From assembly GCA_048941015.1 (NCBI GenBank), contig JBHLNZ010000069.1, forward strand, positions 1 to 15,178: DNA of 15,178 nt. Reading direction: 5' to 3'. The notes below the pieces were generated by a model. It worked only from the letters and a program-made list of their open reading frames with translations, was not told where the DNA came from and did not search any database. Positions 3,580-14,891 of the stretch are shown in pieces. The position numbers and the translations under genes are program-made. Position 1 is the first letter of the stretch; every line of letters begins with the position of its first letter. Source of the DNA: Promethearchaeota archaeon. GTDB lineage: Archaea > Asgardarchaeota > Lokiarchaeia > Sigyniarchaeales > SOKP01.

Positions 3580-4383
3580 TTATCCTCTATAATCAAGAAC
3601 TATGACAACATCAACGTATAACTCGTAATTCTCGTCCTCATCATAATCATGTATTTGGACCTTATCTACCTCGTCCAATTCTCCTTTTACTTCCATAAGT
3701 TCTGATTGTAGTAATATTTTTACTGGAGAATGCTTTAATTGTTTTCTAATTTCAACCGTTCCAGGAATTGATTGAGCAGAAGTCACCACAATTACTCTAC
3801 CCGTATATTTAGTCAACTTTAACGCAAGTTCTAAGGACTTATCTCCCGAATCAACTATTAAAATTCTTTTATCTCGTAGTTCTTCAAGATCTGAGGGAAT
3901 TTCTTTATAAACTCCCTTACCCAGAAATTCATCAATACCTAAAATTACCCTCACATCAAGTTGACACGATGTGGCAATCTCTACATCAGGATTTGCTCCT
4001 GTTCTATAATTATCGATTGCGGCTTTTAAAGCATCTGCGGCTAAATTACTACAATGCATTTTAATGGGTGGTAAACCATCTAATTCGTCAGCAACATCCT
4101 GTCTACTAACTTTATAAGCTTCATCGAGAGGCATTCCTTTAACCATCTCGGTTATCATTGATGACGTGCTTATAGCACTACCACAACCAAACGTCTTAAA
4201 TTTAATGTCATTGATAATTTCCTCGCCTTTATCATTCTTCCCTACTTTAATGTAGATCCACATGAGGTCCCCGCAAACAGGATTACCGACCTTTCCAACA
4301 CCGTCGGCATCCTCTATTTCACCAACATTACGTGGATTTTTAAAATGATCCAATACCTTTTCTGAATATTGAGTTGATTTCAT
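3580..4383 (-). CDS. iscU: IscU/NifU-N Fe-S scaffold fused to a C-terminal degenerate thioredoxin-reductase NADPH-domain-like region
   Basis: YSEKVLDHFKNPRNVG, GNPVCGD, FKTFGCGSA and LPPIKMHCS give all three scaffold Cys. The extra ~125 aa read like the TrxB segment from GxGV to VDxV. RBS GGTGA lies just after the iscS stop. Confidence 0.92.
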   Translation of the reverse strand: MKSTQYSEKVLDHFKNPRNVGEIEDADGVGKVGNPVCGDLMWIYIKVGKNDKGEEIINDIKFKTFGCGSAISTSSMITEMVKGMPLDEAYKVSRQDVADELDGLPPIKMHCSNLAADALKAAIDNYRTGANPDVEIATSCQLDVRVILGIDEFLGKGVYKEIPSDLEELRDKRILIVDSGDKSLELALKLTKYTGRVIVVTSAQSIPGTVEIRKQLKHSPVKILLQSELMEVKGELDEVDKVQIHDYDEDENYELYVDVVIVLDYRG

Positions 4384-4398
4384 ACTTTTATTCTCACC

Positions 4399-5580
4399 TT
4401 ATTTTAATTCTTTTATCATATCAGGAGGCGTTAAAGGAGATAGTTTTCGCAACCTTTTAACTGATTCGGGTAACACTTCGATTAATTTATTTATATCGTA
4501 TTCTTTAGTGGTTCTTCCTAAACTAACCAATAAAGAACCATGAGCTTCTTCATGAAGTAATCCCATAGATATTAGTGTATGTGATGGCTCTAATGTTTTA
4601 GAAGAGCACGCAGAACCTGTTGCAGCAGCAATATTATTTTCTTTTAATGTTAATATCAATGACTCTCCTTCTATATAGTCGAATCTGAAATGTGCATTAT
4701 GCGGTAATCTCTTCTCAGGATGGCCATTCAAATATGAATTAGGAATTTTTTCTAAAACATTTTTTATTAGTTTATCTCTTAGATCTTTAAGATATTCTGC
4801 TTCATTTGGCATTACCCGTTTCATAATTTCTGCCGCTTTAGCAAATCCAACAATTCCAGGGATATTTTCAGATCCTGAACGGAATCCTCTTTCTTGACCT
4901 CCACCTATAATTATTGGATTAACACGTACACCTTTCTTAATGTATAAAGCTCCAACACCCCGCGGTCCATAAATATCATTCGAAGAGAGGGTGACTAAAT
5001 CAATGGGTATCTTTTGTAAATCTAGAGGTATTACACTTTCACTCGCAACAGCGTCAGTATGAAATAAAATCTTTTTCTCTTGAGCTATTTTACTAATTTC
5101 CTCTATTGGTTGTAAAGAGCCAACTTCATTACTCGCCGTCGATATAGATATTAAAATTGTATCATCTTTAATTAGTTTTTCAAGTTTATCTAATCTGACA
5201 ATTCCAAATCTATCAACAGGAAGTCTACTTATTTCAAATCCTTCTTTTTCTAAATGTTTAGCAATGTTTAGAATTGATATGTGCTCAATTTCAGAGATAA
5301 TAATATGATTGCCTTTCCTTTTATAAAAGTTAGAACCTCCCATAAGAGCAAGATTGTTTGATTCAGTAGCTCCAGAAGTAAAAATAATATCGGTAGCATT
5401 TGGTGCATTGACAAAATCTGCAACTTTTTCTCTTGATTTTTCTAATATATCGGTGGCGATATCACCATCACAGTGAAGAGATGCCGGATTAGCAAATTTC
5501 TCATTAAAATATTCCATCATTTCCTTCACAACTCTTTCATCAACTGGTTTAGCTGCCTGATTATCTAAATAGATGCTCAA
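4399..5580 (-). CDS. iscS: IscS/NifS-family cysteine desulfurase homolog lacking the PLP Schiff-base lysine
   Basis: YLDN, NPASLH, FTSGATESNN, EH, GGGQERGFRSGSEN and GSAC325SS. The SAHK motif reads SSND (D202). TTG start 7 nt after GGAGG. Confidence 0.92.
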   Translation of the reverse strand: MSIYLDNQAAKPVDERVVKEMMEYFNEKFANPASLHCDGDIATDILEKSREKVADFVNAPNATDIIFTSGATESNNLALMGGSNFYKRKGNHIIISEIEHISILNIAKHLEKEGFEISRLPVDRFGIVRLDKLEKLIKDDTILISISTASNEVGSLQPIEEISKIAQEKKILFHTDAVASESVIPLDLQKIPIDLVTLSSNDIYGPRGVGALYIKKGVRVNPIIIGGGQERGFRSGSENIPGIVGFAKAAEIMKRVMPNEAEYLKDLRDKLIKNVLEKIPNSYLNGHPEKRLPHNAHFRFDYIEGESLILTLKENNIAAATGSACSSKTLEPSHTLISMGLLHEEAHGSLLVSLGRTTKEYDINKLIEVLPESVKRLRKLSPLTPPDMIKELK

Positions 5581-5641
5581 TTTATTGCCTCCATAATCTA
5601 ATATATCACAATTTTAAATTTTTCTTTAAATAAAATTAAAA

Positions 5642-6001
5642 TCAAAACCATTGAGTAGCATCTACATCTAAAACCAAATCATTTAGGGTTGCAGCTCCAA
5701 CAATTTTAACACCAGGAATAAGATCTACTTTTTCCCAGCCCAACATCCTTTTTGAAGCTTCACAAACCAAGATTTCAATTCCCATCTCCAAGCTTTTATC
5801 AATCATTTCTTTCACACTAGGAAAATCTCCTAATTTCATCTCTTCTGCCACACCAGGTTTTAATATCTTCAGGCCCATACCTAAATAATAAAGTGTTGCT
5901 TTGATGTTCATAGTCTTAGCGGTTTGTGCTAAAACCAATGGAGAATATTGTCGTTCGGGTATATCACTAGTTTGAACATATAAAATATGTTTTTCTTCCA
6001 T
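5642..6001 (-). CDS. DsrE/DsrF-family sulfur-relay protein
   Basis: 119 aa with the family pattern (LAQTA...YYLGMGLKIL...GIEILVCEAS...GVKIVGAATL...WF). It has a single conserved-position Cys and starts 13 nt downstream of tusA. Confidence 0.85.
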   Translation of the reverse strand: MEEKHILYVQTSDIPERQYSPLVLAQTAKTMNIKATLYYLGMGLKILKPGVAEEMKLGDFPSVKEMIDKSLEMGIEILVCEASKRMLGWEKVDLIPGVKIVGAATLNDLVLDVDATQWF

Positions 6002-6014
6002 AATTTTTCGTCTC

Positions 6015-6269
6015 TTATTGTTTTTTCTTAAAGTAAAATACTAAATCGTCGCCATCTTTATGAAATTCTACTAATTCCGTATCTGTCCTTTTTGCCCATC
6101 TTTTTAAATCCTCTTCAGCTGCTGGATCATCGGCTAAAACCTTAAAGCATTGACCAACTTCAAGAGTTTCTGAAAAATTTCGAACTTCAAAAAGTGGTTC
6201 TGGGCAATACAAACCACGAGTATCTATTTCCTCCTCATATTCAATTTCTTTACCTTTTTCACTACTCAA
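6015..6269 (-). CDS. tusA: TusA/SirA-family sulfurtransferase
   Basis: IDTRGLYCPEP (CPxP) and VLADDPAAEEDLKRWA. TTG start 8 nt after GGAGG. Confidence 0.93.
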   Translation of the reverse strand: MSSEKGKEIEYEEEIDTRGLYCPEPLFEVRNFSETLEVGQCFKVLADDPAAEEDLKRWAKRTDTELVEFHKDGDDLVFYFKKKQ

Positions 6270-7548: not shown

Positions 7549-8304
7549 ATGGAAAAAGAATTTTTAGAAGAAGTACGAGAATTAGGAGATAAAGAAATAC
7601 TTGAGGAGATAAAAAGAGACAATCTTGTTATTTATGCAGAAGATCTTGTAAAAGATTATGAGATTGGAGAATTCATTGTTAGGGCAGTAGATCATGTTTC
7701 ATTAAAGATTAAAGAAAGCGATTTTATTGTAATAAAAGGACCATCAGGAGCAGGTAAAACTACTTTATTAAATTTAATTGGTGGATTAGATTCTCCAAAT
7801 TCTGGTTTAGTCTTTACTAATGGTGTAAAAATTACAAATATGGAAGAAGAATCTCTAGCAACTTTTCGATTATTTAATACTGGTTTTGTATTTCAAAATT
7901 ATAATCTTATCAGCACATTAACAGCTGAAGAAAATGTAATGTTTCCTTTGAGTCTAGCTGGAATGCATGTCCAAGATCAGAGAGAAAAATCTGTCACACT
8001 ATTAAGAAAAATTGGTCTTGGTGACAGACGTGAACATCTCCCATTTCAATTATCAGCAGGTGAACAACAAAGAGTAGCAATTGCCCGTGCATTAGCTAAC
8101 AATCCTCCTATTATTTTAGCAGATGAACCAACTGCTAATTTAGATAAGAATTCAAGTATTTTAATAAGAGATCTATTTAAAGAAATGAAGGAGGAACAAA
8201 GAACGGTAATTATCGCAACTCATGATGACTATTTGATAGAATTAGCAACTAGAGTATTTGAATTTGAAAATGCTAAAATTCTAAAAGAAACTATTATAAA
8301 TTAA
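7549..8304 (+). CDS. ABC transporter ATP-binding protein, LolD/MacB/SalX family
   Basis: Walker A GPSGAGKT, GFVFQNYNL Q-loop, LSAGEQQRVAIARAL signature, ILADEPTANLD Walker B/D-loop and ATHD H-loop. It carries a ~25-aa acidic N-terminal extension. Confidence 0.95.
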   Translation: MEKEFLEEVRELGDKEILEEIKRDNLVIYAEDLVKDYEIGEFIVRAVDHVSLKIKESDFIVIKGPSGAGKTTLLNLIGGLDSPNSGLVFTNGVKITNMEEESLATFRLFNTGFVFQNYNLISTLTAEENVMFPLSLAGMHVQDQREKSVTLLRKIGLGDRREHLPFQLSAGEQQRVAIARALANNPPIILADEPTANLDKNSSILIRDLFKEMKEEQRTVIIATHDDYLIELATRVFEFENAKILKETIIN

Positions 8305-8339
8305 AAAAATATATCCGAAAACTGTAAGGTGTTAATCAG

Positions 8340-10250
8340 ATTTCATTAAATTTTGCACTTAAAGATTTTTATAGGAAAAAAGAAATATCAATTCCTTATG
8401 TATTGATGATTAGTTTAGTTATAGCTTTATCAACCTTCTTAATTTATTTTACTTCTTCAATAGGATTAAATTCTTTTATTCAATATGATTATAGTAATAT
8501 TTTTTATTTTACAGGCGGAATTAGTTTAATTTATTTCAATTTTAATACATTGATTATAAGTCTTGTTTTGATATTAGCATTTATTGTGGTTATTGTAATC
8601 ACGAGTACTTTAATCCTTAATAAGAGGAGAGATATTGCTATTATGAAATCATTAGGCACACTTCCAGGTAAACTATATAACTATTATTTAACAGAAGCTT
8701 ATATTATGTATTTTATAGGTTTTCTGTTAGGATTTCTTTTAGGTTTAATTTCTTATGGAATTTCAGGACTTTTACTTAGATTATTAGGATTTTCTGTTTA
8801 CTTTTTTATCGATCTACTTTATACACCAATTCTATTCTTTTCTTGTATGGGTGGCATTTTTATCGTTCCTGGATACATTTTAAGAAGAATTGGAAATCAA
8901 AAAACAGTAAAGACATTTTCAAAAGACATTCCTTATAACTATGATGCTTCTAAAGGACTATCCTTTATTCCTAAATGGATCTCATTGATCAGCCTTAACT
9001 TCAAAACATCCGTTATTAATACTATTAGAAGGAAAGGAGAATTTAAACGGTATATGATAGTTTTTTCGATCATTTCAGTCATAATATTTACTTTAAGTAT
9101 AGGAATATTTGTATTAAATAGTTCTTCACAACAATGGATTAGAAAATCCCAAGGAGAGAATATTTTAGCAATTGGGCATAAGGATGTAATTGAAAATTAC
9201 GCTTTAATGTATTCTATGTTTTCAGATCCTACTCTTATGATCAATGGTGATGAGATAGATTTGTTGGACTCACAATATCTATTTAATTTCTCTAATATTG
9301 ATGATTTAGGAGATTTATCTGATATAAAAACAATTGATCAAAGATTAATTAGTTTTTTCAATGCTGAAGAATTAGATGGATATCACTACTATGAAACTTC
9401 AGGTTATATTATCGTAGGACAGCAAAGAACAGGAATATTTCCTGTAGTTGGGGTAAATACTAGTGAACTTATCCAAAATTTTGAAATTGATGGTACTTAT
9501 TTTAATGATTCTGATGCTGACATAAATATGTTAATAGGAGATGGTTTAGCTTATAATTTCTTCGATTATGCTTTTGATCAAAGTATACGATTTTATGATC
9601 TTAATCATACTTTTCACATCTCAGGAGTAGCGATAGATAGTCTGTATAGTGGTTATTCCGGATATATCGATATTGATGTCATGAGAGAAGATTTAAACCT
9701 TACTAATCAAGAAGTAAACTTAATTTTGATCGAACTTAACTCTAATCCATCCTCTGTAATCGAAAATGAATTAAGTACCATTATTACTTCAAATCTTGGA
9801 AACAACTTTACATATATAGCTTTAGATTCGATATTTGACAAAAATCTTCAACATATTTCGAATTTAACTTTATATCCTGCTATATTGGTTTTCATAATGG
9901 GAGTAATTTCGATTCTTTCTCTCTATAACTATCAAAAGGGGGGAATTTTAGAAAAATCAAAAGATTTCTTAATTCAAAGAGCGATTGGCTCCAAGTATAA
10001 ATATATTAAACGAATATTGTTCTTAGAAGCGTTATACGTGATTGTACCTTCTTTGTCCTTGAGTTTAGGAATAGGAATGATACTAAATTCAATTGTTTTA
10101 TTTGAAAGAGCTTATTTACCACCTCTTTACATTCCTTTAATAATTTTTGGATTTACTTTTATTTCTTTTATTTGCTTCAATTATATTAGTCTTATCCCTA
10201 TTATGAAGAAGATTAAAAAATTTAATATTAAAGATTTTGTAATCTTCTAA
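8340..10250 (+). CDS. FtsX/MacB-family ABC permease with two tandem permease halves (ORF track start 8403; proposed ATT start 8340)
   Basis: About 8 hydrophobic segments, KRRDIAIMKSLG and KSKDFLIQRAIG FtsX-type motifs, and a large hydrophilic extracytoplasmic domain in the second half. The frame is open from 8328 and encodes ISLNFALKDFYRKK before the called start. Confidence 0.88.
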   Translation: MSLNFALKDFYRKKEISIPYVLMISLVIALSTFLIYFTSSIGLNSFIQYDYSNIFYFTGGISLIYFNFNTLIISLVLILAFIVVIVITSTLILNKRRDIAIMKSLGTLPGKLYNYYLTEAYIMYFIGFLLGFLLGLISYGISGLLLRLLGFSVYFFIDLLYTPILFFSCMGGIFIVPGYILRRIGNQKTVKTFSKDIPYNYDASKGLSFIPKWISLISLNFKTSVINTIRRKGEFKRYMIVFSIISVIIFTLSIGIFVLNSSSQQWIRKSQGENILAIGHKDVIENYALMYSMFSDPTLMINGDEIDLLDSQYLFNFSNIDDLGDLSDIKTIDQRLISFFNAEELDGYHYYETSGYIIVGQQRTGIFPVVGVNTSELIQNFEIDGTYFNDSDADINMLIGDGLAYNFFDYAFDQSIRFYDLNHTFHISGVAIDSLYSGYSGYIDIDVMREDLNLTNQEVNLILIELNSNPSSVIENELSTIITSNLGNNFTYIALDSIFDKNLQHISNLTLYPAILVFIMGVISILSLYNYQKGGILEKSKDFLIQRAIGSKYKYIKRILFLEALYVIVPSLSLSLGIGMILNSIVLFERAYLPPLYIPLIIFGFTFISFICFNYISLIPIMKKIKKFNIKDFVIF

Positions 10251-10354
10251 AAGTATCTAAATGGTAATTTACAAAAAATTAAAAATATATATTAAGAGTA
10301 TTATGAAATATATATAACTAAAAATTAGCATATTAAAAAGGATTAATAACCTCT

Positions 10355-11668
10355 ATGACAGAAGAAGATAATTTGCGCATCAAAATCAAGGATTTGGAAT
10401 CGCAATTAGAAGCTAAAGAAAGAGAACTCATGAGTTCATTTGATAAAATCGACCACCTTGAAGAAGAAGTTATGGCTCTCCATGAGATCATGCCTGCCAA
10501 GGATTCGAAGAAAAAAAGTAAGAAAGTTAAAGAATCAAAAATCGCTTTTGAACTAGCTGCCAAAGATAGAGAAATAAGAGAATTAAAAGATAAAATGGGC
10601 TATTTAAGAAAGGAGAAAATAGAAGCACAGAAAGAACTTGAAAGAATAAAATCAAATGAAGCATCCTCTTCTGTTATTCGTGTTGAAGATATTAGAAAAG
10701 ATCAAACACCTCTAAGTATATTAGTAAAAGAATTACAGTCAAAAATAAACAAGCAAGAATCTATAATCAAGCGTTTGAAAGGAGGAACATTCTCTAGTGA
10801 TGATTATGAAGAAAAAATCAAAGAAAAAAACGATGAAATTCAAGCCTTGAAGAAGGGTATAGAAAATTTAAATCAAAAATTACAGGAAGCTAATGCCAAC
10901 ACTCAGATTAAACCAAATGAGGAAGTAAAGAAAAAATTACTCGAAGATCTTCAAGATAAATTAAATAAATCAAAAAGACAGATAGATGATTTAAACAATA
11001 AACTCAGCAAATATGAAAAAAAAGGAAAAATCAAAGACAAGGAAGTCTCCGAATTACAGGCATCAAAAGCAAAAATAGTTCAATTAACTGATGATTTAAT
11101 GGAAAAAAATAGAGAAATAGAGCAACTAAAAAAAGCTAATACTGATTCTGACAAGACACCACGATCTAATCCTTTAGAACCGGTTGTTGAAGAATTAAAA
11201 AATAAATTAAATAAATCTAAAGCTCAATTAGAATTATTAGAATTTCAATTATCTGAAACTCAGGAACAACCTGATTCATCGAAGAAAATAAGTAAAAAAG
11301 ATATTGATGGAAGATTAAAAATACAAAGAGAAATGGCAAGACTTCTACAGCAACAACTGGATGACACAAAAAGGGACTTAAAAACTAAAGAAGAAGAGAT
11401 TGGGACAATTAAAAATGAAGGAATAAGGATTAAAAATAAATACGAAGATCTATATAACCAACTAAGGCTAAAAGATCAACAACTCTCGGAATTAAAATCA
11501 GAATTAGATACTTTTAAATTTCAATCCCGAGATCAAGCATTAATTCCTCCTACTGAAGACCCCCAACTTATTGTAAGAATTAATGAACTAAAGAGCATAA
11601 TTGAAGAATTAAATAAACAAAATGCTCAACAAAGATTAGAAATTTCACAGTTAAGAAAAAGTACATAA
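10355..11668 (+). CDS. Long coiled-coil protein of unknown function
   Basis: 437 aa, K/E/Q/L-rich heptad pattern throughout, no hydrophobic TM segment, and three copies of an ELQxKLNKSKxQI-like repeat. Confidence 0.85.
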   Translation: MTEEDNLRIKIKDLESQLEAKERELMSSFDKIDHLEEEVMALHEIMPAKDSKKKSKKVKESKIAFELAAKDREIRELKDKMGYLRKEKIEAQKELERIKSNEASSSVIRVEDIRKDQTPLSILVKELQSKINKQESIIKRLKGGTFSSDDYEEKIKEKNDEIQALKKGIENLNQKLQEANANTQIKPNEEVKKKLLEDLQDKLNKSKRQIDDLNNKLSKYEKKGKIKDKEVSELQASKAKIVQLTDDLMEKNREIEQLKKANTDSDKTPRSNPLEPVVEELKNKLNKSKAQLELLEFQLSETQEQPDSSKKISKKDIDGRLKIQREMARLLQQQLDDTKRDLKTKEEEIGTIKNEGIRIKNKYEDLYNQLRLKDQQLSELKSELDTFKFQSRDQALIPPTEDPQLIVRINELKSIIEELNKQNAQQRLEISQLRKST

Positions 11669-11682
11669 TTTAATGAACTTTG

Positions 11683-12663
11683 ATGGAACTCATTATTTTA
11701 GGATCCTCTGCAGCAATCCCAGTAAGGGAGCGAAATTTACCTTCAATTGCTTTAAAATATAAAAATGAAATAATATTATTCGATTGTGGAGAAGATCTGC
11801 AACGTAGAATTATAGATGCTGGTTTGAAGTTTAATAAACCTCTAAAGATATTAATTTCTCACTTTCATGGAGATCACATAATCGGACTTCCCGGGTTATT
11901 ATTTCGATTCGGATTAATTGATAGAGATAAGCCTCTTATGATATTTGGTCCCCGAAACCTCTTTCTATATTTATATCTACATAAAAAAATTCTTGGACTT
12001 AAGGCAGATTATCCAATTTCGATTATCGAAATTGATAATGTGAATAATAAGTTAATCGAGTATCAAGGTTTAGATAATGAGGAACCATTTAAAGAATCGA
12101 AAATAAATGAAAATATTATTTTTGATTGCAAAAGATATTTTTTAAAATATTGTGAAGTGGAACATTCAATTCTTACATTTGGTTATTCTTTCATAGAGAA
12201 ACCACGCAGTGGAAAATTCAATCCAGAAAAGGCTAGACAAATGGGAATACCGGAGAGTAGACTTTGGAAACAAATGCATGAAGGAGAAACTATTAAATTT
12301 AATGGAAAAACCATAGATCCATTAAAAGAAGGTATTGTCGGGCCAAAAAGGATCGGACGGAAAATCACTTATTCAGGGGATACTGCTCCATCTGATAATC
12401 TGATCAAATTAGGTAAAAATTCTGATATATTAATTCATGAAGCTACATTCTCGAAAGAATTATTAGATATCGCTAAAGAAAAGAAACACTCAACTTCTGT
12501 TGATGCTGCAAACGCTGCGATAAAAATGAATGCAAAACAATTAATTCTAACTCATATATCTTCAAGATACCAAGAAGATTCTAAAAAATTACTTAAAGAA
12601 GCGAAAGAGATATTTCCAAACACAATTTTAGCAGAAGATTTATTGAAAATGGATTTAAAATAG
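11683..12663 (+). CDS. rnz: Ribonuclease Z (tRNA 3'-processing metallo-beta-lactamase)
   Basis: LGSSAAIP, LFDCGE, SHFHGDH, exosite (GKFNPEKA..MGIP), YSGDT, LIHEATF, HSTS and LTHISSRY. Start is ATG 11683 or the TTG at 11680. Confidence 0.96.
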   Translation: MELIILGSSAAIPVRERNLPSIALKYKNEIILFDCGEDLQRRIIDAGLKFNKPLKILISHFHGDHIIGLPGLLFRFGLIDRDKPLMIFGPRNLFLYLYLHKKILGLKADYPISIIEIDNVNNKLIEYQGLDNEEPFKESKINENIIFDCKRYFLKYCEVEHSILTFGYSFIEKPRSGKFNPEKARQMGIPESRLWKQMHEGETIKFNGKTIDPLKEGIVGPKRIGRKITYSGDTAPSDNLIKLGKNSDILIHEATFSKELLDIAKEKKHSTSVDAANAAIKMNAKQLILTHISSRYQEDSKKLLKEAKEIFPNTILAEDLLKMDLK

Positions 12664-12749
12664 CTAAAAATTTTAATAATTGAATATAAAGAGCCTTAAT
12701 TCATAATTCTTTAAAAATGGAGATATAAATTAAATAAAAATTATGTTTA

Positions 12750-12959
12750 TCAGTTCCCCCCTGCTATATGGGGAAGAATAACAATTTCGTCGGTTTCTCT
12801 GATTATATCATCTTCAGATGCTTTCTTGCCGTTTATAAGAATTCCAAAATATTTACCCTCTAAATTTAATTCCCTGAGAAGTTCTTTAACTCTCATTTGT
12901 TTCTCTGGTTTAAAGGTTTCATAAAGCCCAGTATCAATAAGTTCAGTAATTTGTTTTAT
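12750..12959 (-). CDS. ThiS/MoaD/SAMP-type ubiquitin-like small protein ending in GGN (missing from the ORF track)
   Basis: Manual translation: (I/M)KQITELIDTGLYETFKPEKQMRVKELLRELNLEGKYFGILINGKKASEDDIIRETDEIVILPHIAGGN-stop. VKELLxxL, INGK and DEIVILPxIAGG are beta-grasp sulfur-carrier hallmarks. First ATG is at 12896 (48 aa). ATA at 12959 follows AGGTGG by 5 nt (69 aa). Confidence 0.88.
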   Translation of the reverse strand: MKQITELIDTGLYETFKPEKQMRVKELLRELNLEGKYFGILINGKKASEDDIIRETDEIVILPHIAGGN

Positions 12960-13235
12960 TTAAACCACCTTTAATATCAATTTATTTTAATTTAATAATA
13001 TTATAACCACCTAACTATTTAAAATTAATTCCTTAATAATTTAGGTGTCAACTTCCAATTAAGTACAATTTTATATCATAAATTTTCGAGTAGGTAAGAC
13101 ATTTTAATCTAATTTAATCAGCTTTTCAACATCCCTTTTAAAATTTTTCCATACTGGATAAGAAAAACCAACTCTTTTTATTTTTTTAATAATTTTTATA
13201 CTTAAATCTTACAATTTTTAAAGGGTTGATCTTAA

Positions 13236-14891
13236 ATACTTCAATCAGAGGATGATTACAGTGATTATGGAGATTATTTAGAGAAATTAAGAGATTCCCT
13301 TGAAATTGTTCATAATCTTAAAGATAAAGAAAGAAAAAATTTTATTCAAAATCTGGTTAAAGATATAATTGAATTCGCAAATAACATAGCGGATACAGAA
13401 GAATATTTTGAGGCAGGTGAATTTTTATATTCTGCTGCTGAACTAATTCAAGAGTTTGATGAATTCCAATCAAATTTTTTATATAAACTAATAATAAAAT
13501 TCTGGGAAAATCAAATCAATTTCTATAAACTTCAAGCAAAATTACACGAAATTGCAGAAATATATCTAAGACTTGCTGATTTATATAATGAAAAGTTTGA
13601 TGATCCAAAATCTGAGAGAAAGCACATCTTAAATAGTATTAATTATTTGAAACAAGAAAGCAAACTGTTAGAAGAATTCAATGAAACGAGAAAGTTAACC
13701 CAGAATTTTGAAAATATTGCCGAGTTATATCTCAAAATAAATGACTGTAAACGAGCAACAAGATATTATGCTTACGTTATTGAAATTGCAAAGAATTTCC
13801 AATATTTTGATTTATTATCCTATTCATATCAACAAATAGCTTCATGTTACCGTGAATTAGATGATTATAATAAATCAAAAGATATAATTTTAGAGGGCAT
13901 CGAATACTTCTCAGATATCTATGAAAAATTTGATGAGATAAATGACTATCTCACAATCTCTCAAGTTAGTCAAGTTTTAAAGAAATTATATAAGCTGACT
14001 AATAATGAAGAACAATTCGTAATTTATTCAAAAAATGAAGCTAGAGCATATATAAGTCTTGCTGAAAGATTAGAAAAAAAAGAAGAAAATTTTCAAAAAA
14101 TAGCTCGTTTCTATCGTGGAGCTGCATTGTGCTATCAAGAAATTCATAATAATTTAATTGAATCTGCTTCGTGCTTCGTATTAGCAGGTAACTATTCAGA
14201 GAAAGTTGAAGATTTTAATGAAGCTGCGACAAATTTCTTTAATGCCGCAGTAACCTTTAAGGAATTAAATAATATTGAAATGGCATATAAGCATTTTGTA
14301 AAAGCTGGTGATAATTATTGGAAAATAGGAGAAGTAAATGATTCCACTGAATGTTATTTAAATGCTTATGATATAGCAGTTGAGGGAGAATTAGAGTATG
14401 ATAGATTCGGCATATTTAATCAAATTGTTAGGGGTTTAAATATAATAGCTAAAGAAGGTTTAAAAAATAAACAATTTTATACTTCAGCAACAGTCATTTT
14501 AGAAAGTATTAAATTTTATCAACAGCTTGATACGGCTAAAGAGTTTCTAGTTAATGAAATGGTAAGAAATGTATATAAATATTATTACCGAGCAGCGAAT
14601 TTGCAGAAGATAGGATTTTCTCATATCGTTCAATCTTATGTATTAGCTGCAATTTCTTCTATTCTTAACGGTAAAATTGAAAAAGCTTTAAAAATTCTCT
14701 CAGAAATAGAATCTGATGGTAATACCGTAAGAAAGTATAAAGAATTAGTTAAATTGATAATAGAATGGGTTTCTGAAGGGAAACAAGTCGAATTTGATAA
14801 CTTTCCATATGAATTACAAAGAATTATTCAAGGATCTGAAGAGATAATGTATCTTTTAAAGTTATTTAAAGGTTATAAAATAGCTGTGTAA
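13236..14891 (+). CDS. Alpha-helical repeat (TPR-like / soluble NSF attachment protein-like) protein (ORF track start 13647; frame open from ATA 13236)
   Basis: Repeats of A..Y/F..AA..Y/F (IARFYRGAALCY, SASCFVLAGNY, AATNFFNAAVTF, AYKHFVKAGDNY, STECYLNAYDI). The 137 stop-free upstream codons continue the pattern (EAGEFLYSAAELI, EIAEIYLRLADLY). Confidence 0.75.
   Translation: MLQSEDDYSDYGDYLEKLRDSLEIVHNLKDKERKNFIQNLVKDIIEFANNIADTEEYFEAGEFLYSAAELIQEFDEFQSNFLYKLIIKFWENQINFYKLQAKLHEIAEIYLRLADLYNEKFDDPKSERKHILNSINYLKQESKLLEEFNETRKLTQNFENIAELYLKINDCKRATRYYAYVIEIAKNFQYFDLLSYSYQQIASCYRELDDYNKSKDIILEGIEYFSDIYEKFDEINDYLTISQVSQVLKKLYKLTNNEEQFVIYSKNEARAYISLAERLEKKEENFQKIARFYRGAALCYQEIHNNLIESASCFVLAGNYSEKVEDFNEAATNFFNAAVTFKELNNIEMAYKHFVKAGDNYWKIGEVNDSTECYLNAYDIAVEGELEYDRFGIFNQIVRGLNIIAKEGLKNKQFYTSATVILESIKFYQQLDTAKEFLVNEMVRNVYKYYYRAANLQKIGFSHIVQSYVLAAISSILNGKIEKALKILSEIESDGNTVRKYKELVKLIIEWVSEGKQVEFDNFPYELQRIIQGSEEIMYLLKLFKGYKIAV

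What the first reader, a model, noticed from the sequence alone, without database searches (positions are those of the whole stretch)
8325..13646. Three genes in one window appear to initiate at ATA/ATT codons
Seen in all three cases: an in-frame TAA bounds the frame, an RBS-like motif sits 5-8 nt before an ATH codon, and protein-like sequence runs on with no ATG/GTG/TTG until much later. The cases are the permease (AAGGTG-8 nt-ATT 8340, +21 codons), the ubiquitin-like gene (AGGTGG-5 nt-ATA 12959, +21 codons) and the SNAP-like gene (AGGGTTGA-6 nt-ATA 13236, +137 codons). The spacing resembles the GGAGG-7/8 nt-TTG starts of iscS and tusA. Inference: this lineage uses relaxed, RBS-directed start-codon selection far more than standard gene callers assume, which would truncate or hide many proteins.
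Basis: partly seen in the sequence, partly recalled or inferred. Interest (0 to 1): 0.7.

Follow-up and report, generated by a model that had tools for sequence, protein, structure and literature searches.

The report
Genes starting at ATT/ATA codons
Three genes in this Asgard-archaeon window really do lack a normal start codon and begin at ATT or ATA behind a ribosome-binding site, and the same habit affects roughly 3-7% of the genome's genes, so standard gene callers cut or misplace many proteins in this lineage.

Summary

- **The three genes.** Each has an in-frame stop, a Shine-Dalgarno (SD) match in the genome's normal register, then ATT or ATA. ATG/GTG/TTG follows only 21, 21 and 137 codons later.
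- **Relatives fix the start position.**
  - Permease, window plus 18 relatives: ATT x12, ATA x3, ATG x5.
  - ThiS-like gene: ATA, ATT, TTG or ATG.
  - SNAP-like gene: ATT in 8 relatives (69-89% identity), directly after a stop.
- **Genome-wide (3.59 Mb, 29% GC).**
  - In-frame ATH (ATT/ATA/ATC) codons in start-less 5' stretches carry an SD 4-6 times more often than out-of-frame ATH (p about 1e-10).
  - About 3.5% of long ORFs, up to 7% of all ORFs, lack a canonical start.
  - Affected genes include IscU, a GPN GTPase, a ThiF-like E1, HisA, Rpo7 and aIF1.
- **Initiator tRNA.** It is standard (anticodon CAT), so this is near-cognate initiation, not a code change.
- **Spread.** The signal recurs in a congener and one other family, but not in two complete Loki genomes sampled.
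- **aIF1.** The start-codon fidelity factor keeps an ATT start in four sampled genera of the family.
- **Prior notice.** First readers flagged the same idea in other windows of this genome. I found one single-gene anecdote in the literature.
- **Untested.** No protein-level evidence exists yet.

The parts
7549..8304 (+). ABC-transporter ATPase with a canonical ATG start. It is the upstream operon partner of the permease; its stop lies 35 nt before ATT 8340.
   Evidence: Pfam ABC_tran 2.8e-30; start context.
8326..8331 (+). Shine-Dalgarno match AAGGTG (AGGTG at -13 relative to ATT 8340). It overlaps the in-frame TAA 8325-8327.
   Evidence: Sequence. AGGTG at -12/-13 is the modal position before confident ATG starts.
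8340..10250 (+). FtsX/MacB-type ABC permease of 636 aa, starting at ATT 8340. A canonical-only call (TTG 8403) would remove 21 conserved N-terminal residues.
   Evidence: Pfam FtsX 5.1e-17. In 19 relatives the homologous codon is ATT x11, ATA x3 or ATG x5, each behind an SD, with in-frame stops 1-24 codons upstream.
12750..12959 (-). ThiS/MoaD-family ubiquitin-like protein of 69 aa ending GG plus one residue, starting at ATA 12959-12957 directly after TAA 12962-12960.
   Evidence: The Pfam ThiS match runs from residue 14 to profile position 14, so the full length is needed. Orthologs start with M at the same column. DNA of relatives shows ATA, ATT x5, TTG x2 and ATG x2 at that codon.
12965..12970 (-). 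Shine-Dalgarno match AGGTGG, 5 nt before ATA 12959.
   Evidence: Sequence. The same motif and spacing occur in the 89%-identical relative L001.
13222..13231 (+). Shine-Dalgarno-like AGGGTTGATC, with TGATC at -9 relative to ATA 13236.
   Evidence: Sequence. TGATC at -9 is the modal position before ATG starts. The motif is conserved in 8 relatives.
13236..14891 (+). SNAP/TPR-like protein of 551 aa, starting at ATA 13236 directly after TAA 13233-13235. A canonical-only call (TTG 13647) would remove 137 residues.
   Evidence: Pfam SNAP 33.4 bits against a cut-off of 25. 290 homologs cover the N-terminal part. Eight relatives have stop, then ATT, then the same first residues, with synonymous changes downstream. 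NCBI annotated an ATT start for one ortholog.
4399..5580 (-). iscS-like gene, used as an internal control: GGAGG, 7 nt, TTG canonical start.
6015..6269 (-). tusA-like gene, used as an internal control: GGAGG, 8 nt, TTG canonical start.

Best explanation
The three genes are intact. They are translated from near-cognate AUU/AUA start codons that an upstream Shine-Dalgarno pairing with the 16S 3' end (GGATCACCTCCT) places in the ribosomal P site. The ordinary initiator tRNA (anticodon CAU) tolerates a third-position mismatch. This is a property of the organism, not of three odd genes: in this genus of Asgard (Loki-type) archaea, AUU/AUA/AUC act as a regular minor class of start codons for roughly 3-7% of genes, core genes included, and exchange freely with ATG and TTG at fixed start positions during evolution.

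Shown: canonical starts are absent; the extensions are coding and conserved; start codons interchange at homologous positions; SD is enriched before in-frame ATH; the initiator tRNA gene is standard.

Inferred: Met-tRNAi is the initiating tRNA, and lowered discrimination (normally exerted by aIF1) is what permits this. The aIF1 gene itself starts at AUU across four sampled genera of the family (g1, g10, g14, g15). This could form a feedback that sets the stringency, as with AUU-started infC in bacteria.
For: 1. Anatomy of the three sites, with SD positions matching the register of 887 confident ATG starts.

2. Permease. The homologous codon in 19 relatives is ATT x11, ATA x3 or ATG x5, always behind an SD.

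3. ThiS-like gene. The homologous codon is ATA (window, L001), ATT (5 loci), TTG (2 loci) or ATG (L194, L195). The Pfam ThiS alignment needs the extension.

4. SNAP-like gene. Eight relatives at 69-89% identity all have a stop, then ATT, then the same residues. One ortholog was deposited with an ATT start.

5. Genome-wide SD association.
- In canonical-start-free 5' stretches, SD run >=5 precedes 67/1253 ATH codons against 124/7059 other codons (OR 3.2, p 4e-12).
- In-frame ATH carries it at 5.3%, out-of-frame ATH at 1.3% (OR 4.2, p 1.4e-10).
- Within 8 codons of the upstream stop the figures are 8.3% against 1.4% (OR 6.5, p 1e-10).

6. The distance from the upstream stop to the first canonical start has a slow component. 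Its decay (0.03 per codon) equals the in-frame ATG+GTG+TTG frequency of coding sequence (0.034). Its weight is 3.5% for ORFs of >=200 codons and 7.2% for ORFs of >=100 codons.

7. I tested ten other start-less genes of this genome. In eight of them the Pfam domain starts at profile position 1-3 within residues 2-11 of the ATH-started (one CTG-started) protein. The first canonical start lies 11-113 codons further on. A ninth, aIF1, has its SUI1 domain from residue 29, but its first canonical start lies 74 codons in and would remove most of that domain.

8. Rpo7. The homologous start codon is ATT x13, ATC x1, ATG x14, GTG x1, TTG x1 across 30 genomes including this one.

9. The initiator tRNA gene has anticodon CAT, A1:U72 and the GGG/CCC anticodon stem. 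A pattern search found no second initiator-like gene with another anticodon.

10. The same SD-ATH enrichment appears in a congener (OR 3.9, p 0.003) and in a genome of another family (OR 4.0, p 0.012).
Against: - There is no direct evidence of translation: no N-terminal peptides and no initiation-site profiling. The identity of the first residue is inferred.
- For the SNAP-like gene I did not find any relative with a canonical codon at the proposed start, so that position rests on conservation, the flanking stop and the SD alone.
- Only a minority of candidate ATH starts have a strong SD (9 of 32 long ORFs), so SD direction cannot be the whole mechanism.
- The 3-7% estimate is indirect. It may include frameshifted or broken genes (for example C3:37742) and, for short ORFs, spurious frames.
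- The signal was not significant in 400-kb samples of two complete genomes of the same order, and no case was found in 120 kb of a sister genus. The extent of 'this lineage' is therefore uncertain.
- A direct comparison of aligned start codons between two congeners was too weak to be significant.
Confidence: 0.85

Rival explanations
1. Initiation does occur at these SD-positioned sites, but not by ordinary Met-tRNAi mismatch pairing. Possibilities are a modified initiator anticodon that truly reads AUH (as f5C34 does in mitochondria), initiation with an Ile-tRNA, or codon-independent initiation set only by SD spacing.
For: The codon set (AUU, AUA, AUC) matches mitochondrial alternative starts. 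All three ATH codons are enriched to a similar degree: 5.1%, 5.2% and 7.0% with SD. tRNA modification cannot be read from DNA.
Against: Enrichment is specific to ATH. AT-only control codons (AAA, AAT, TTA, TAT, TTT) carry an SD at 1.2%, which argues against codon-independent initiation. The initiator tRNA gene is canonical. ATG and TTG alternate with ATH at the same positions, as expected if one initiator reads them all.
Confidence: 0.07
2. Translation starts at the first downstream ATG/GTG/TTG. The conserved upstream stretch is then untranslated leader or relic sequence, and the proteins are shorter than their relatives.
For: Gene callers made such calls for several database relatives: 62-63 aa ThiS-like proteins and 467-537 aa SNAP-like proteins.
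Against: The upstream stretches are conserved at amino-acid level with synonymous DNA changes. They stay open for up to 137 codons in a genome with 8.7% stop triplets in noncoding DNA. In other genes they contain indispensable parts such as P-loops and the start of the ThiF, HisA and NifU domains. The downstream canonical codons are not conserved: the TTG used in relative L001 is TTA in the window.
Confidence: 0.03
3. The start codons are damaged by sequencing or assembly errors, or the genes are decaying pseudogenes.
For: The genome is a 144-contig metagenome assembly with 5% estimated contamination. At least one start-less ORF looks frameshifted (C3:37742).
Against: The same ATH codons recur in 8-19 independently assembled relatives. 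Errors would not hit only the third base of start codons. The ORFs are otherwise intact and conserved.
Confidence: 0.02
4. The genes are reached by coupling or recoding: termination-reinitiation after an upstream ORF, or a frameshift from the out-of-frame TTG inside the SD-like motif of the SNAP-like gene.
For: The permease follows the ATPase gene by 35 nt. A TTG lies inside GGGTTGATC, 10 nt before ATA 13236, and is conserved in relatives.
Against: The ThiS-like and SNAP-like genes are first genes of divergent units with a 276-nt spacer. The TTG sits where canonical SDs have GTG (GTGAT at -10), has no SD of its own, and its frame closes after 9-10 codons. In any case reinitiation would still need a non-canonical start codon.
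Confidence: 0.03

Closest known systems
AUU start codon of bacterial infC (IF3), and rare AUU/AUA/AUC/CUG starts allowed by NCBI translation table 11 (for example E. coli pcnB; Deinococcus deserti proteogenomics, PMC2830850; Enterococcus faecalis ebpA, PMC4447247)
   Same: SD-positioned near-cognate codon read by the normal initiator tRNA. The AUU is conserved in evolution. The gene for the start-codon fidelity factor (aIF1 here) itself carries the poor codon.
   Different: Those are isolated genes, a handful per genome. Here an estimated 80-200 genes per genome are affected, in an archaeon whose fidelity factor is aIF1/SUI1 rather than IF3. Autoregulation has not been shown here.
Single reported 'rare ATT start codon' of an Asgard tubulin gene (AtubA; Sci Adv 2026, PMC13394414, Methods)
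   Same: Same phylum and same reasoning: the deposited protein was too short, and an ATT lies at a plausible distance from an RBS.
   Different: That is one gene in another Asgard lineage, treated as an annotation fix. There is no comparative or genome-wide analysis.
Near-cognate initiation in eukaryotes, controlled by eIF1/eIF5
   Same: The fidelity factor is a homolog (SUI1 family). eIF1 limits its own synthesis through a poor start site (established knowledge). [quoted passage not shown]
   Different: Eukaryotes scan from the cap and favour CUG/GUG/ACG. Here the site is set by an SD, and third-position variants (AUH) dominate.
Mitochondrial AUA/AUU/AUC initiation
   Same: The same set of alternative start codons in very AT-rich genomes.
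   Different: Mitochondria rely on a modified tRNA-Met wobble base and, in many, on AUA reassigned to Met, with leaderless mRNAs (PMC5048346). Here SD-led mRNAs and a standard initiator tRNA gene are seen. AUA reassignment was not tested.

Membership tests
SD-directed near-cognate (non-ATG/GTG/TTG) start codon | No canonical start between the upstream in-frame stop and the conserved N-terminal sequence | tested here: met
   21, 21 and 137 canonical-free codons. The stop lies 0-4 codons before the ATH.
SD-directed near-cognate (non-ATG/GTG/TTG) start codon | The stretch between the ATH and the first canonical codon is coding | tested here: met
   Amino-acid conservation with synonymous DNA changes. 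The Pfam ThiS alignment is in register from residue 14.
SD-directed near-cognate (non-ATG/GTG/TTG) start codon | Orthologs carry a canonical start at the homologous codon | tested here: met
   Permease: ATG in 5 of 19 relatives. ThiS-like: ATG in L194 and L195, TTG in L005 and L008. SNAP-like: only ATT/ATA seen, so this criterion is inconclusive for that gene.
SD-directed near-cognate (non-ATG/GTG/TTG) start codon | Ribosome-binding site at the spacing used by canonical starts of the same genome | tested here: met
   16S 3' end. Register from 887 ATG starts. The three sites fall at modal or near-modal positions.
SD-directed near-cognate (non-ATG/GTG/TTG) start codon | Protein N-terminus or initiating ribosomes mapped to the codon | not testable with these tools
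   No proteomic or ribosome-profiling data were available.
infC/eIF1-type autoregulation of the start-codon fidelity factor | The fidelity-factor gene has a conserved poor start site | tested here: met
   aIF1 (SUI1 domain) has ATT (ATC in one genus) behind an in-frame stop in all 26 loci of genera g1, g10, g14 and g15, and in the one g11 locus. The three g12 loci also carry an in-frame GTG and are ambiguous. Other families show ATG, TTG or ATA.
infC/eIF1-type autoregulation of the start-codon fidelity factor | Expression from the poor start site falls when the factor is abundant | not testable with these tools
   Needs reporter or in vitro translation experiments.
Mitochondrial-type decoding (AUA = Met, modified tRNA-Met) | AUA read as Met in elongation, or an initiator tRNA altered to read AUH | not tested
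   The initiator tRNA gene is standard. ATT and ATC are used as well as ATA, which a pure AUA reassignment would not explain. Internal AUA decoding and tRNA modification were not examined.
FtsX/MacB-type ABC permease (gene 8340-10250) | FtsX-like permease domain, partnered with an ABC ATPase | tested here: met
   Pfam FtsX 62.5 bits against a cut-off of 25.5, two stretches. The ABC_tran gene lies directly upstream.
ThiS/MoaD ubiquitin-like sulfur carrier or modifier (gene 12750-12959) | ThiS-family fold signature and C-terminal Gly-Gly | tested here: met
   Pfam ThiS 38.7 bits against a cut-off of 22.5. GG is invariant, followed by one variable residue in nearly all orthologs. The AlphaFold model has mean pLDDT 75 and its first 10 residues are of low confidence.
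SNAP/TPR-like protein (gene 13236-14891) | SNAP-family helical repeat region | tested here: met
   Pfam SNAP 33.4 bits against a cut-off of 25, covering only residues 269-396. The function was not examined.

The most novel reading that the evidence does not exclude
A whole genus (and part of a family) of Loki-type Asgard archaea has shifted to relaxed start-codon selection. AUU/AUA/AUC then form a regular fourth class of start codons, used by several percent of genes including RNA polymerase subunit Rpo7 and Fe-S, GTPase and ubiquitin-like system genes. The stringency is set by an AUU-initiated aIF1 gene. [quoted passage not shown]
Probability: 0.35. Interest if true: 0.85.

Novelty: new variant of a known kind. 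Interest (0 to 1): 0.72.

Why it matters
Practical consequences:
- Asgard genomes are mined heavily for eukaryote-like proteins such as small GTPases, ubiquitin-like systems, tubulins and SNAP/TPR proteins.
- If several percent of genes start at ATT/ATA/ATC, callers restricted to ATG/GTG/TTG truncate them, extend them to spurious upstream ATGs, or miss them.
- Database relatives of the SNAP-like and ThiS-like genes show all of these errors. Domain inventories, structure predictions and expression constructs inherit them.

Biological interest:
- A prokaryote that uses third-position near-cognate starts at this scale has, as far as my searches show, not been described.
- The fidelity-factor gene aIF1 itself has a conserved AUU start.
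- Together these offer a tractable system for asking how start-codon stringency is set in the lineage nearest to eukaryotes.

Tried and rejected
- **Rfam scan of the window.** No RNA family found.
- **aragorn.** It found only 16-19 tRNAs and no tRNA-Met, because many genes here carry introns. The initiator was found by pattern search instead.
- **Codon-usage coding score.** A log-odds score for 15-codon stretches separated coding from noncoding too poorly to use: 73% true against 33% false positives at a score of 0.
- **Aligned start codons between this genome and a congener.**
  - A confident ATG in one genome aligned with ATH in the other in 9 of 214 projections.
  - Three of those 9 were one-codon misalignments next to an ATG, leaving 6 clean cases.
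  - Alignment noise alone would give about 5, so this is not significant.
- **Structure prediction of the ThiS-like protein.**
  - The model has mean pLDDT 75.
  - Its first 10 residues form a low-confidence helix.
  - It shows a strand at residues 14-16, upstream of the only ATG, but does not by itself prove the full extension is structured.
- **Literature searches.** I tried Asgard or Lokiarchaeota with start codon, non-canonical, near-cognate, AUU and AUA. These gave no genome-wide report and one single-gene anecdote.
- **Rejected readings.** Stop-codon readthrough or an altered code that would extend the ORFs upstream. The stops before the ATH are TAA, TAG or TGA in different relatives, and the upstream DNA is AT-rich and unconserved.

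Full report
**What is in the window.** The window is contig C8 of a 3.59-Mb, 144-contig assembly with 29.4% GC. Database relatives of its proteins are labelled Promethearchaeota, Lokiarchaeota or Hodarchaeota, so it is an Asgard archaeon.

- Permease: stop-to-stop frame 8328-10250. TAA 8325-8327 overlaps AAGGTG 8326-8331; after 8 nt comes ATT 8340. The first ATG/GTG/TTG is TTG 8403.
- ThiS/MoaD-like gene (minus strand, 12959-12750): it opens with ATA directly after TAA, with AGGTGG 5 nt upstream. Its only canonical codon is an ATG 21 codons in.
- SNAP/TPR-like gene (13236-14891): it opens with ATA directly after TAA, preceded by AGGGTTGATC. It has no canonical codon for 137 codons.

**Is the ribosome-binding site real?** The 16S rRNA ends GGATCACCTCCT. 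I took 887 ORFs whose first canonical codon is an ATG within three codons of the upstream stop. Upstream of these, G and T are enriched in the pattern GGTGAT, with GTGAT most often at -10, TGATC at -9 and AGGTG at -12/-13. The three sites have AGGTG at -13 (permease), AGGTG at -11 (ThiS-like) and TGATC at -9 (SNAP-like). All are at or next to the modal register.

**Comparative test, gene by gene.**

*Permease.*
- A search of 30 relatives found full-length orthologs in the genomes of the same genus, and I examined 19 loci.
- The codon aligned with ATT 8340 is ATT in 11 of them, ATA in 3 and ATG in 5.
- A GGTG or GGAGG motif lies shortly upstream in nearly every locus. In-frame stops lie 1-24 codons upstream, and the following residues are conserved.

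*ThiS-like gene.*
- Many database orthologs of 69 aa begin with M exactly where the window has I. Several close relatives were called 6-11 residues short.
- The DNA shows ATA in the window and in the 89% relative L001, ATT in five loci and TTG in two.
- True ATG is present in L194 and L195.
- The Pfam ThiS alignment runs from residue 14 at profile position 14, so the extension is part of the domain.

*SNAP-like gene.*
- All eight genome loci (69-89% identity) have an in-frame stop 0-2 codons before ATT, followed by the same residues. The upstream GGGTTGAT motif is conserved, and substitutions downstream are mostly synonymous or conservative.
- Database proteins of this family have discordant N-termini. 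Some start at a non-conserved internal TTG (TTA in the window). Some run through the SD into a spurious upstream ATG. One NCBI record (L195) was deposited with the ATT as its start.
- I found no relative with a canonical codon at that position. For this gene the start rests on the stop, the SD and conservation.

Conservation across independent assemblies rules out base errors.

**Genome-wide test.**
- I collected 3001 non-overlapping stop-to-stop frames of at least 100 codons.
- In the stretches before the first canonical codon, at least 10 codons away from it, an SD run of 5 or more matches in register precedes 5.3% of ATH codons (67/1253). For all other codons the figure is 1.8% (124/7059), and for AT-only control codons it is 1.2%.
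- The effect is frame-specific: in-frame ATH 5.3%, out-of-frame ATH 1.3% (OR 4.2, p 1.4e-10). Within eight codons of the upstream stop the figures are 8.3% and 1.4% (OR 6.5, p 1e-10).
- For reference, confident ATG starts reach 14.7% and internal codons 3%.
- The distance from the upstream stop to the first canonical codon fits two geometric components far better than one.
  - The slow component decays at 0.03 per codon. This equals the in-frame frequency of ATG+GTG+TTG in coding sequence (0.034).
  - Its weight is 3.4-3.5% for ORFs of 200 or 300 codons and more (78 of 2222; 50 of 1474) and 7.2% for all ORFs of 100 codons and more (215 of 3001). The last figure probably includes spurious frames.
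- A reasonable estimate is therefore 80-200 genes.
- Candidates with recognisable N-termini include IscU, a GPN-loop GTPase, a ParA-like ATPase, several small GTPases, ABC ATPases, a ThiF-like E1, HisA, Rpo7 and aIF1.
- Pfam scans of ten of them:
  - In eight the domain begins at profile position 1-3 within residues 2-11 of the ATH-started protein. One of these appears to use CTG. The first canonical codon lies 11-113 codons further on.
  - aIF1 has its SUI1 domain from residue 29. Its first canonical codon, 74 codons in, would remove most of that domain.
  - The tenth, a phosphorylase-like protein, was uninformative.

**Mechanism.**
- The initiator tRNA gene (C10, about 11612-11726) has anticodon CAT, A1:U72, the GGG/CCC anticodon stem, an intron in the T-loop and an encoded CCA. 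No second initiator-like gene with another anticodon was found by pattern search.
- The simplest reading is near-cognate initiation: the SD holds AUH in the P site, and Met-tRNAi pairs with two of three bases.
- The interchange of ATG, TTG, ATT and ATA at fixed positions fits one initiator reading all of them.
- SD is not obligatory. Of 32 long ORFs with at least 40 canonical-free codons, chosen without regard to SD, 9 have an early in-frame ATH with a strong SD and 15 have one with a run of 4 or more.
- Why discrimination is relaxed is not shown.
- One lead, first raised by another first-stage note, I could verify. The aIF1 gene (SUI1 domain) has a conserved ATT (ATC in one genus) behind an in-frame stop in all 26 loci of four genera of the family, and ATT in a fifth genus (g11).
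  - The three g12 loci also carry an in-frame GTG and are ambiguous.
  - Other families of the order have ATG, TTG or ATA at the homologous codon.
  - This resembles the AUU start of bacterial infC and the poor start site of eukaryotic eIF1. Both mediate feedback on start-codon stringency (established knowledge). Feedback here is inference only.

**Phylogenetic extent.**
- The start codon of Rpo7 across 30 genomes including this one is ATT or ATC in 13 of 17 genomes of this genus and in the one g11 genome. It is ATG in the 4 other genomes of this genus, in 8 of the 10 g10 genomes and in both g14 genomes; the other two g10 genomes have GTG and TTG.
- The SD-ATH enrichment in 400-kb samples:

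| Genome | Placement | Odds ratio | p |
|---|---|---|---|
| G018 | same genus | 3.9 | 0.003 |
| G024 | another family; its aIF1 starts with ATA | 4.0 | 0.012 |
| G026 | complete genome, same order | 1.6 | not significant |
| G047 | complete genome, same order | 0.95 | not significant |
| G027 | 54% GC, same order | 0.86 | not significant |

- Samples of 120 kb (G070, sister genus g10) and 180 kb (G034, genus g12) had too little power.
- The habit is thus best documented for this genus. It occurs in patches elsewhere in the order and affects particular genes (aIF1, the SNAP-like gene) over a wider range.

**Comparison with what is known.**
- Rare ATT/ATA/ATC/CTG starts are allowed by translation table 11. 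They have been proven for single bacterial genes (infC and pcnB from established knowledge; ebpA, PMC4447247) and for a few genes in Deinococcus deserti (PMC2830850).
- Mitochondria use the same codons with a modified tRNA (PMC5048346).
- For Asgard archaea I found only a Methods remark that one tubulin gene 'likely' has a rare ATT start (PMC13394414). Five further searches returned nothing genome-wide.
- Other first-stage notes of this scan flagged the same idea in other windows of this genome. These are unverified leads. I checked three of them (aIF1, Rpo7, the GPN GTPase).
- I therefore class the finding as a new variant of a known kind: a known mechanism at an unusual scale and in an unusual lineage.

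**Limits.**
- Everything rests on sequence. No peptide or ribosome footprint has been seen.
- The first residue is inferred, and the percentage is an estimate.
- Related genomes are not independent samples.

Noticed in passing
G000:C101:18839-18498 (-), locus L089; relatives L099-L138: The aIF1/SUI1 gene, which encodes the start-codon fidelity factor, has no canonical start before its zinc knuckle. A conserved ATT (ATC in one genus) follows an in-frame stop in all 26 loci of four genera of the family. Other families have ATG, TTG or ATA at the homologous codon. This may be an infC-like feedback.
   Followed up: partly
G000:C30:10144-10749 (+), locus L090; relatives L196-L225: The start codon of RNA polymerase subunit Rpo7 toggles between ATT/ATC (13 of 17 genomes of this genus, plus the g11 genome) and ATG/GTG/TTG (the 4 other genomes of this genus, genus g10, genus g14) at one fixed position behind GGTG.
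   Followed up: yes
window 12750-12959 (-); alignment A1: The ThiS-like protein and almost all its orthologs end in an invariant Gly-Gly followed by one variable residue. This suggests a precursor that needs C-terminal trimming, as ubiquitin-type modifiers do. A ThiF-like E1 gene elsewhere (C126:7530-6790) also starts at ATT.
   Followed up: no
G000:C10:about 11612-11726 (+): The initiator tRNA gene (anticodon CAT, A1:U72) is interrupted by an intron of about 40 nt inside the T-loop and encodes its CCA end. aragorn missed it and most other tRNAs of this genome.
   Followed up: partly
G000:C20:48692-49819 (+), locus L095: A succinyl-CoA-synthetase-like ATP-grasp gene has GGAGG, 8 nt, CTG and no canonical start for about 105 codons. 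Its Pfam domain begins at residue 3 of the CTG-started protein, so CTG may also serve as a start here.
   Followed up: partly
L195:601 (NCBI record JBHLRM010001227.1); proteins P0001-P0120: Database N-termini of the SNAP-like family disagree. Calls start at an internal TTG, at spurious upstream ATGs that read through the SD, or (one NCBI record) at the ATT itself.
   Followed up: partly
window 3580-6269 (-): A sulfur-relay cluster with canonical starts: a 267-aa protein whose N-terminal sequence resembles IscU, then iscS and a tusA-like gene. A second, short IscU gene elsewhere (C55:8272-8658) starts at ATT.
   Followed up: no
G000:C3:37742-38296 (+): A small-GTPase frame opens inside its P-loop directly after a stop, with no early ATH. 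It looks like a frameshift or a broken gene, not a non-canonical start. This is a reminder that some start-less ORFs have other causes.
   Followed up: no
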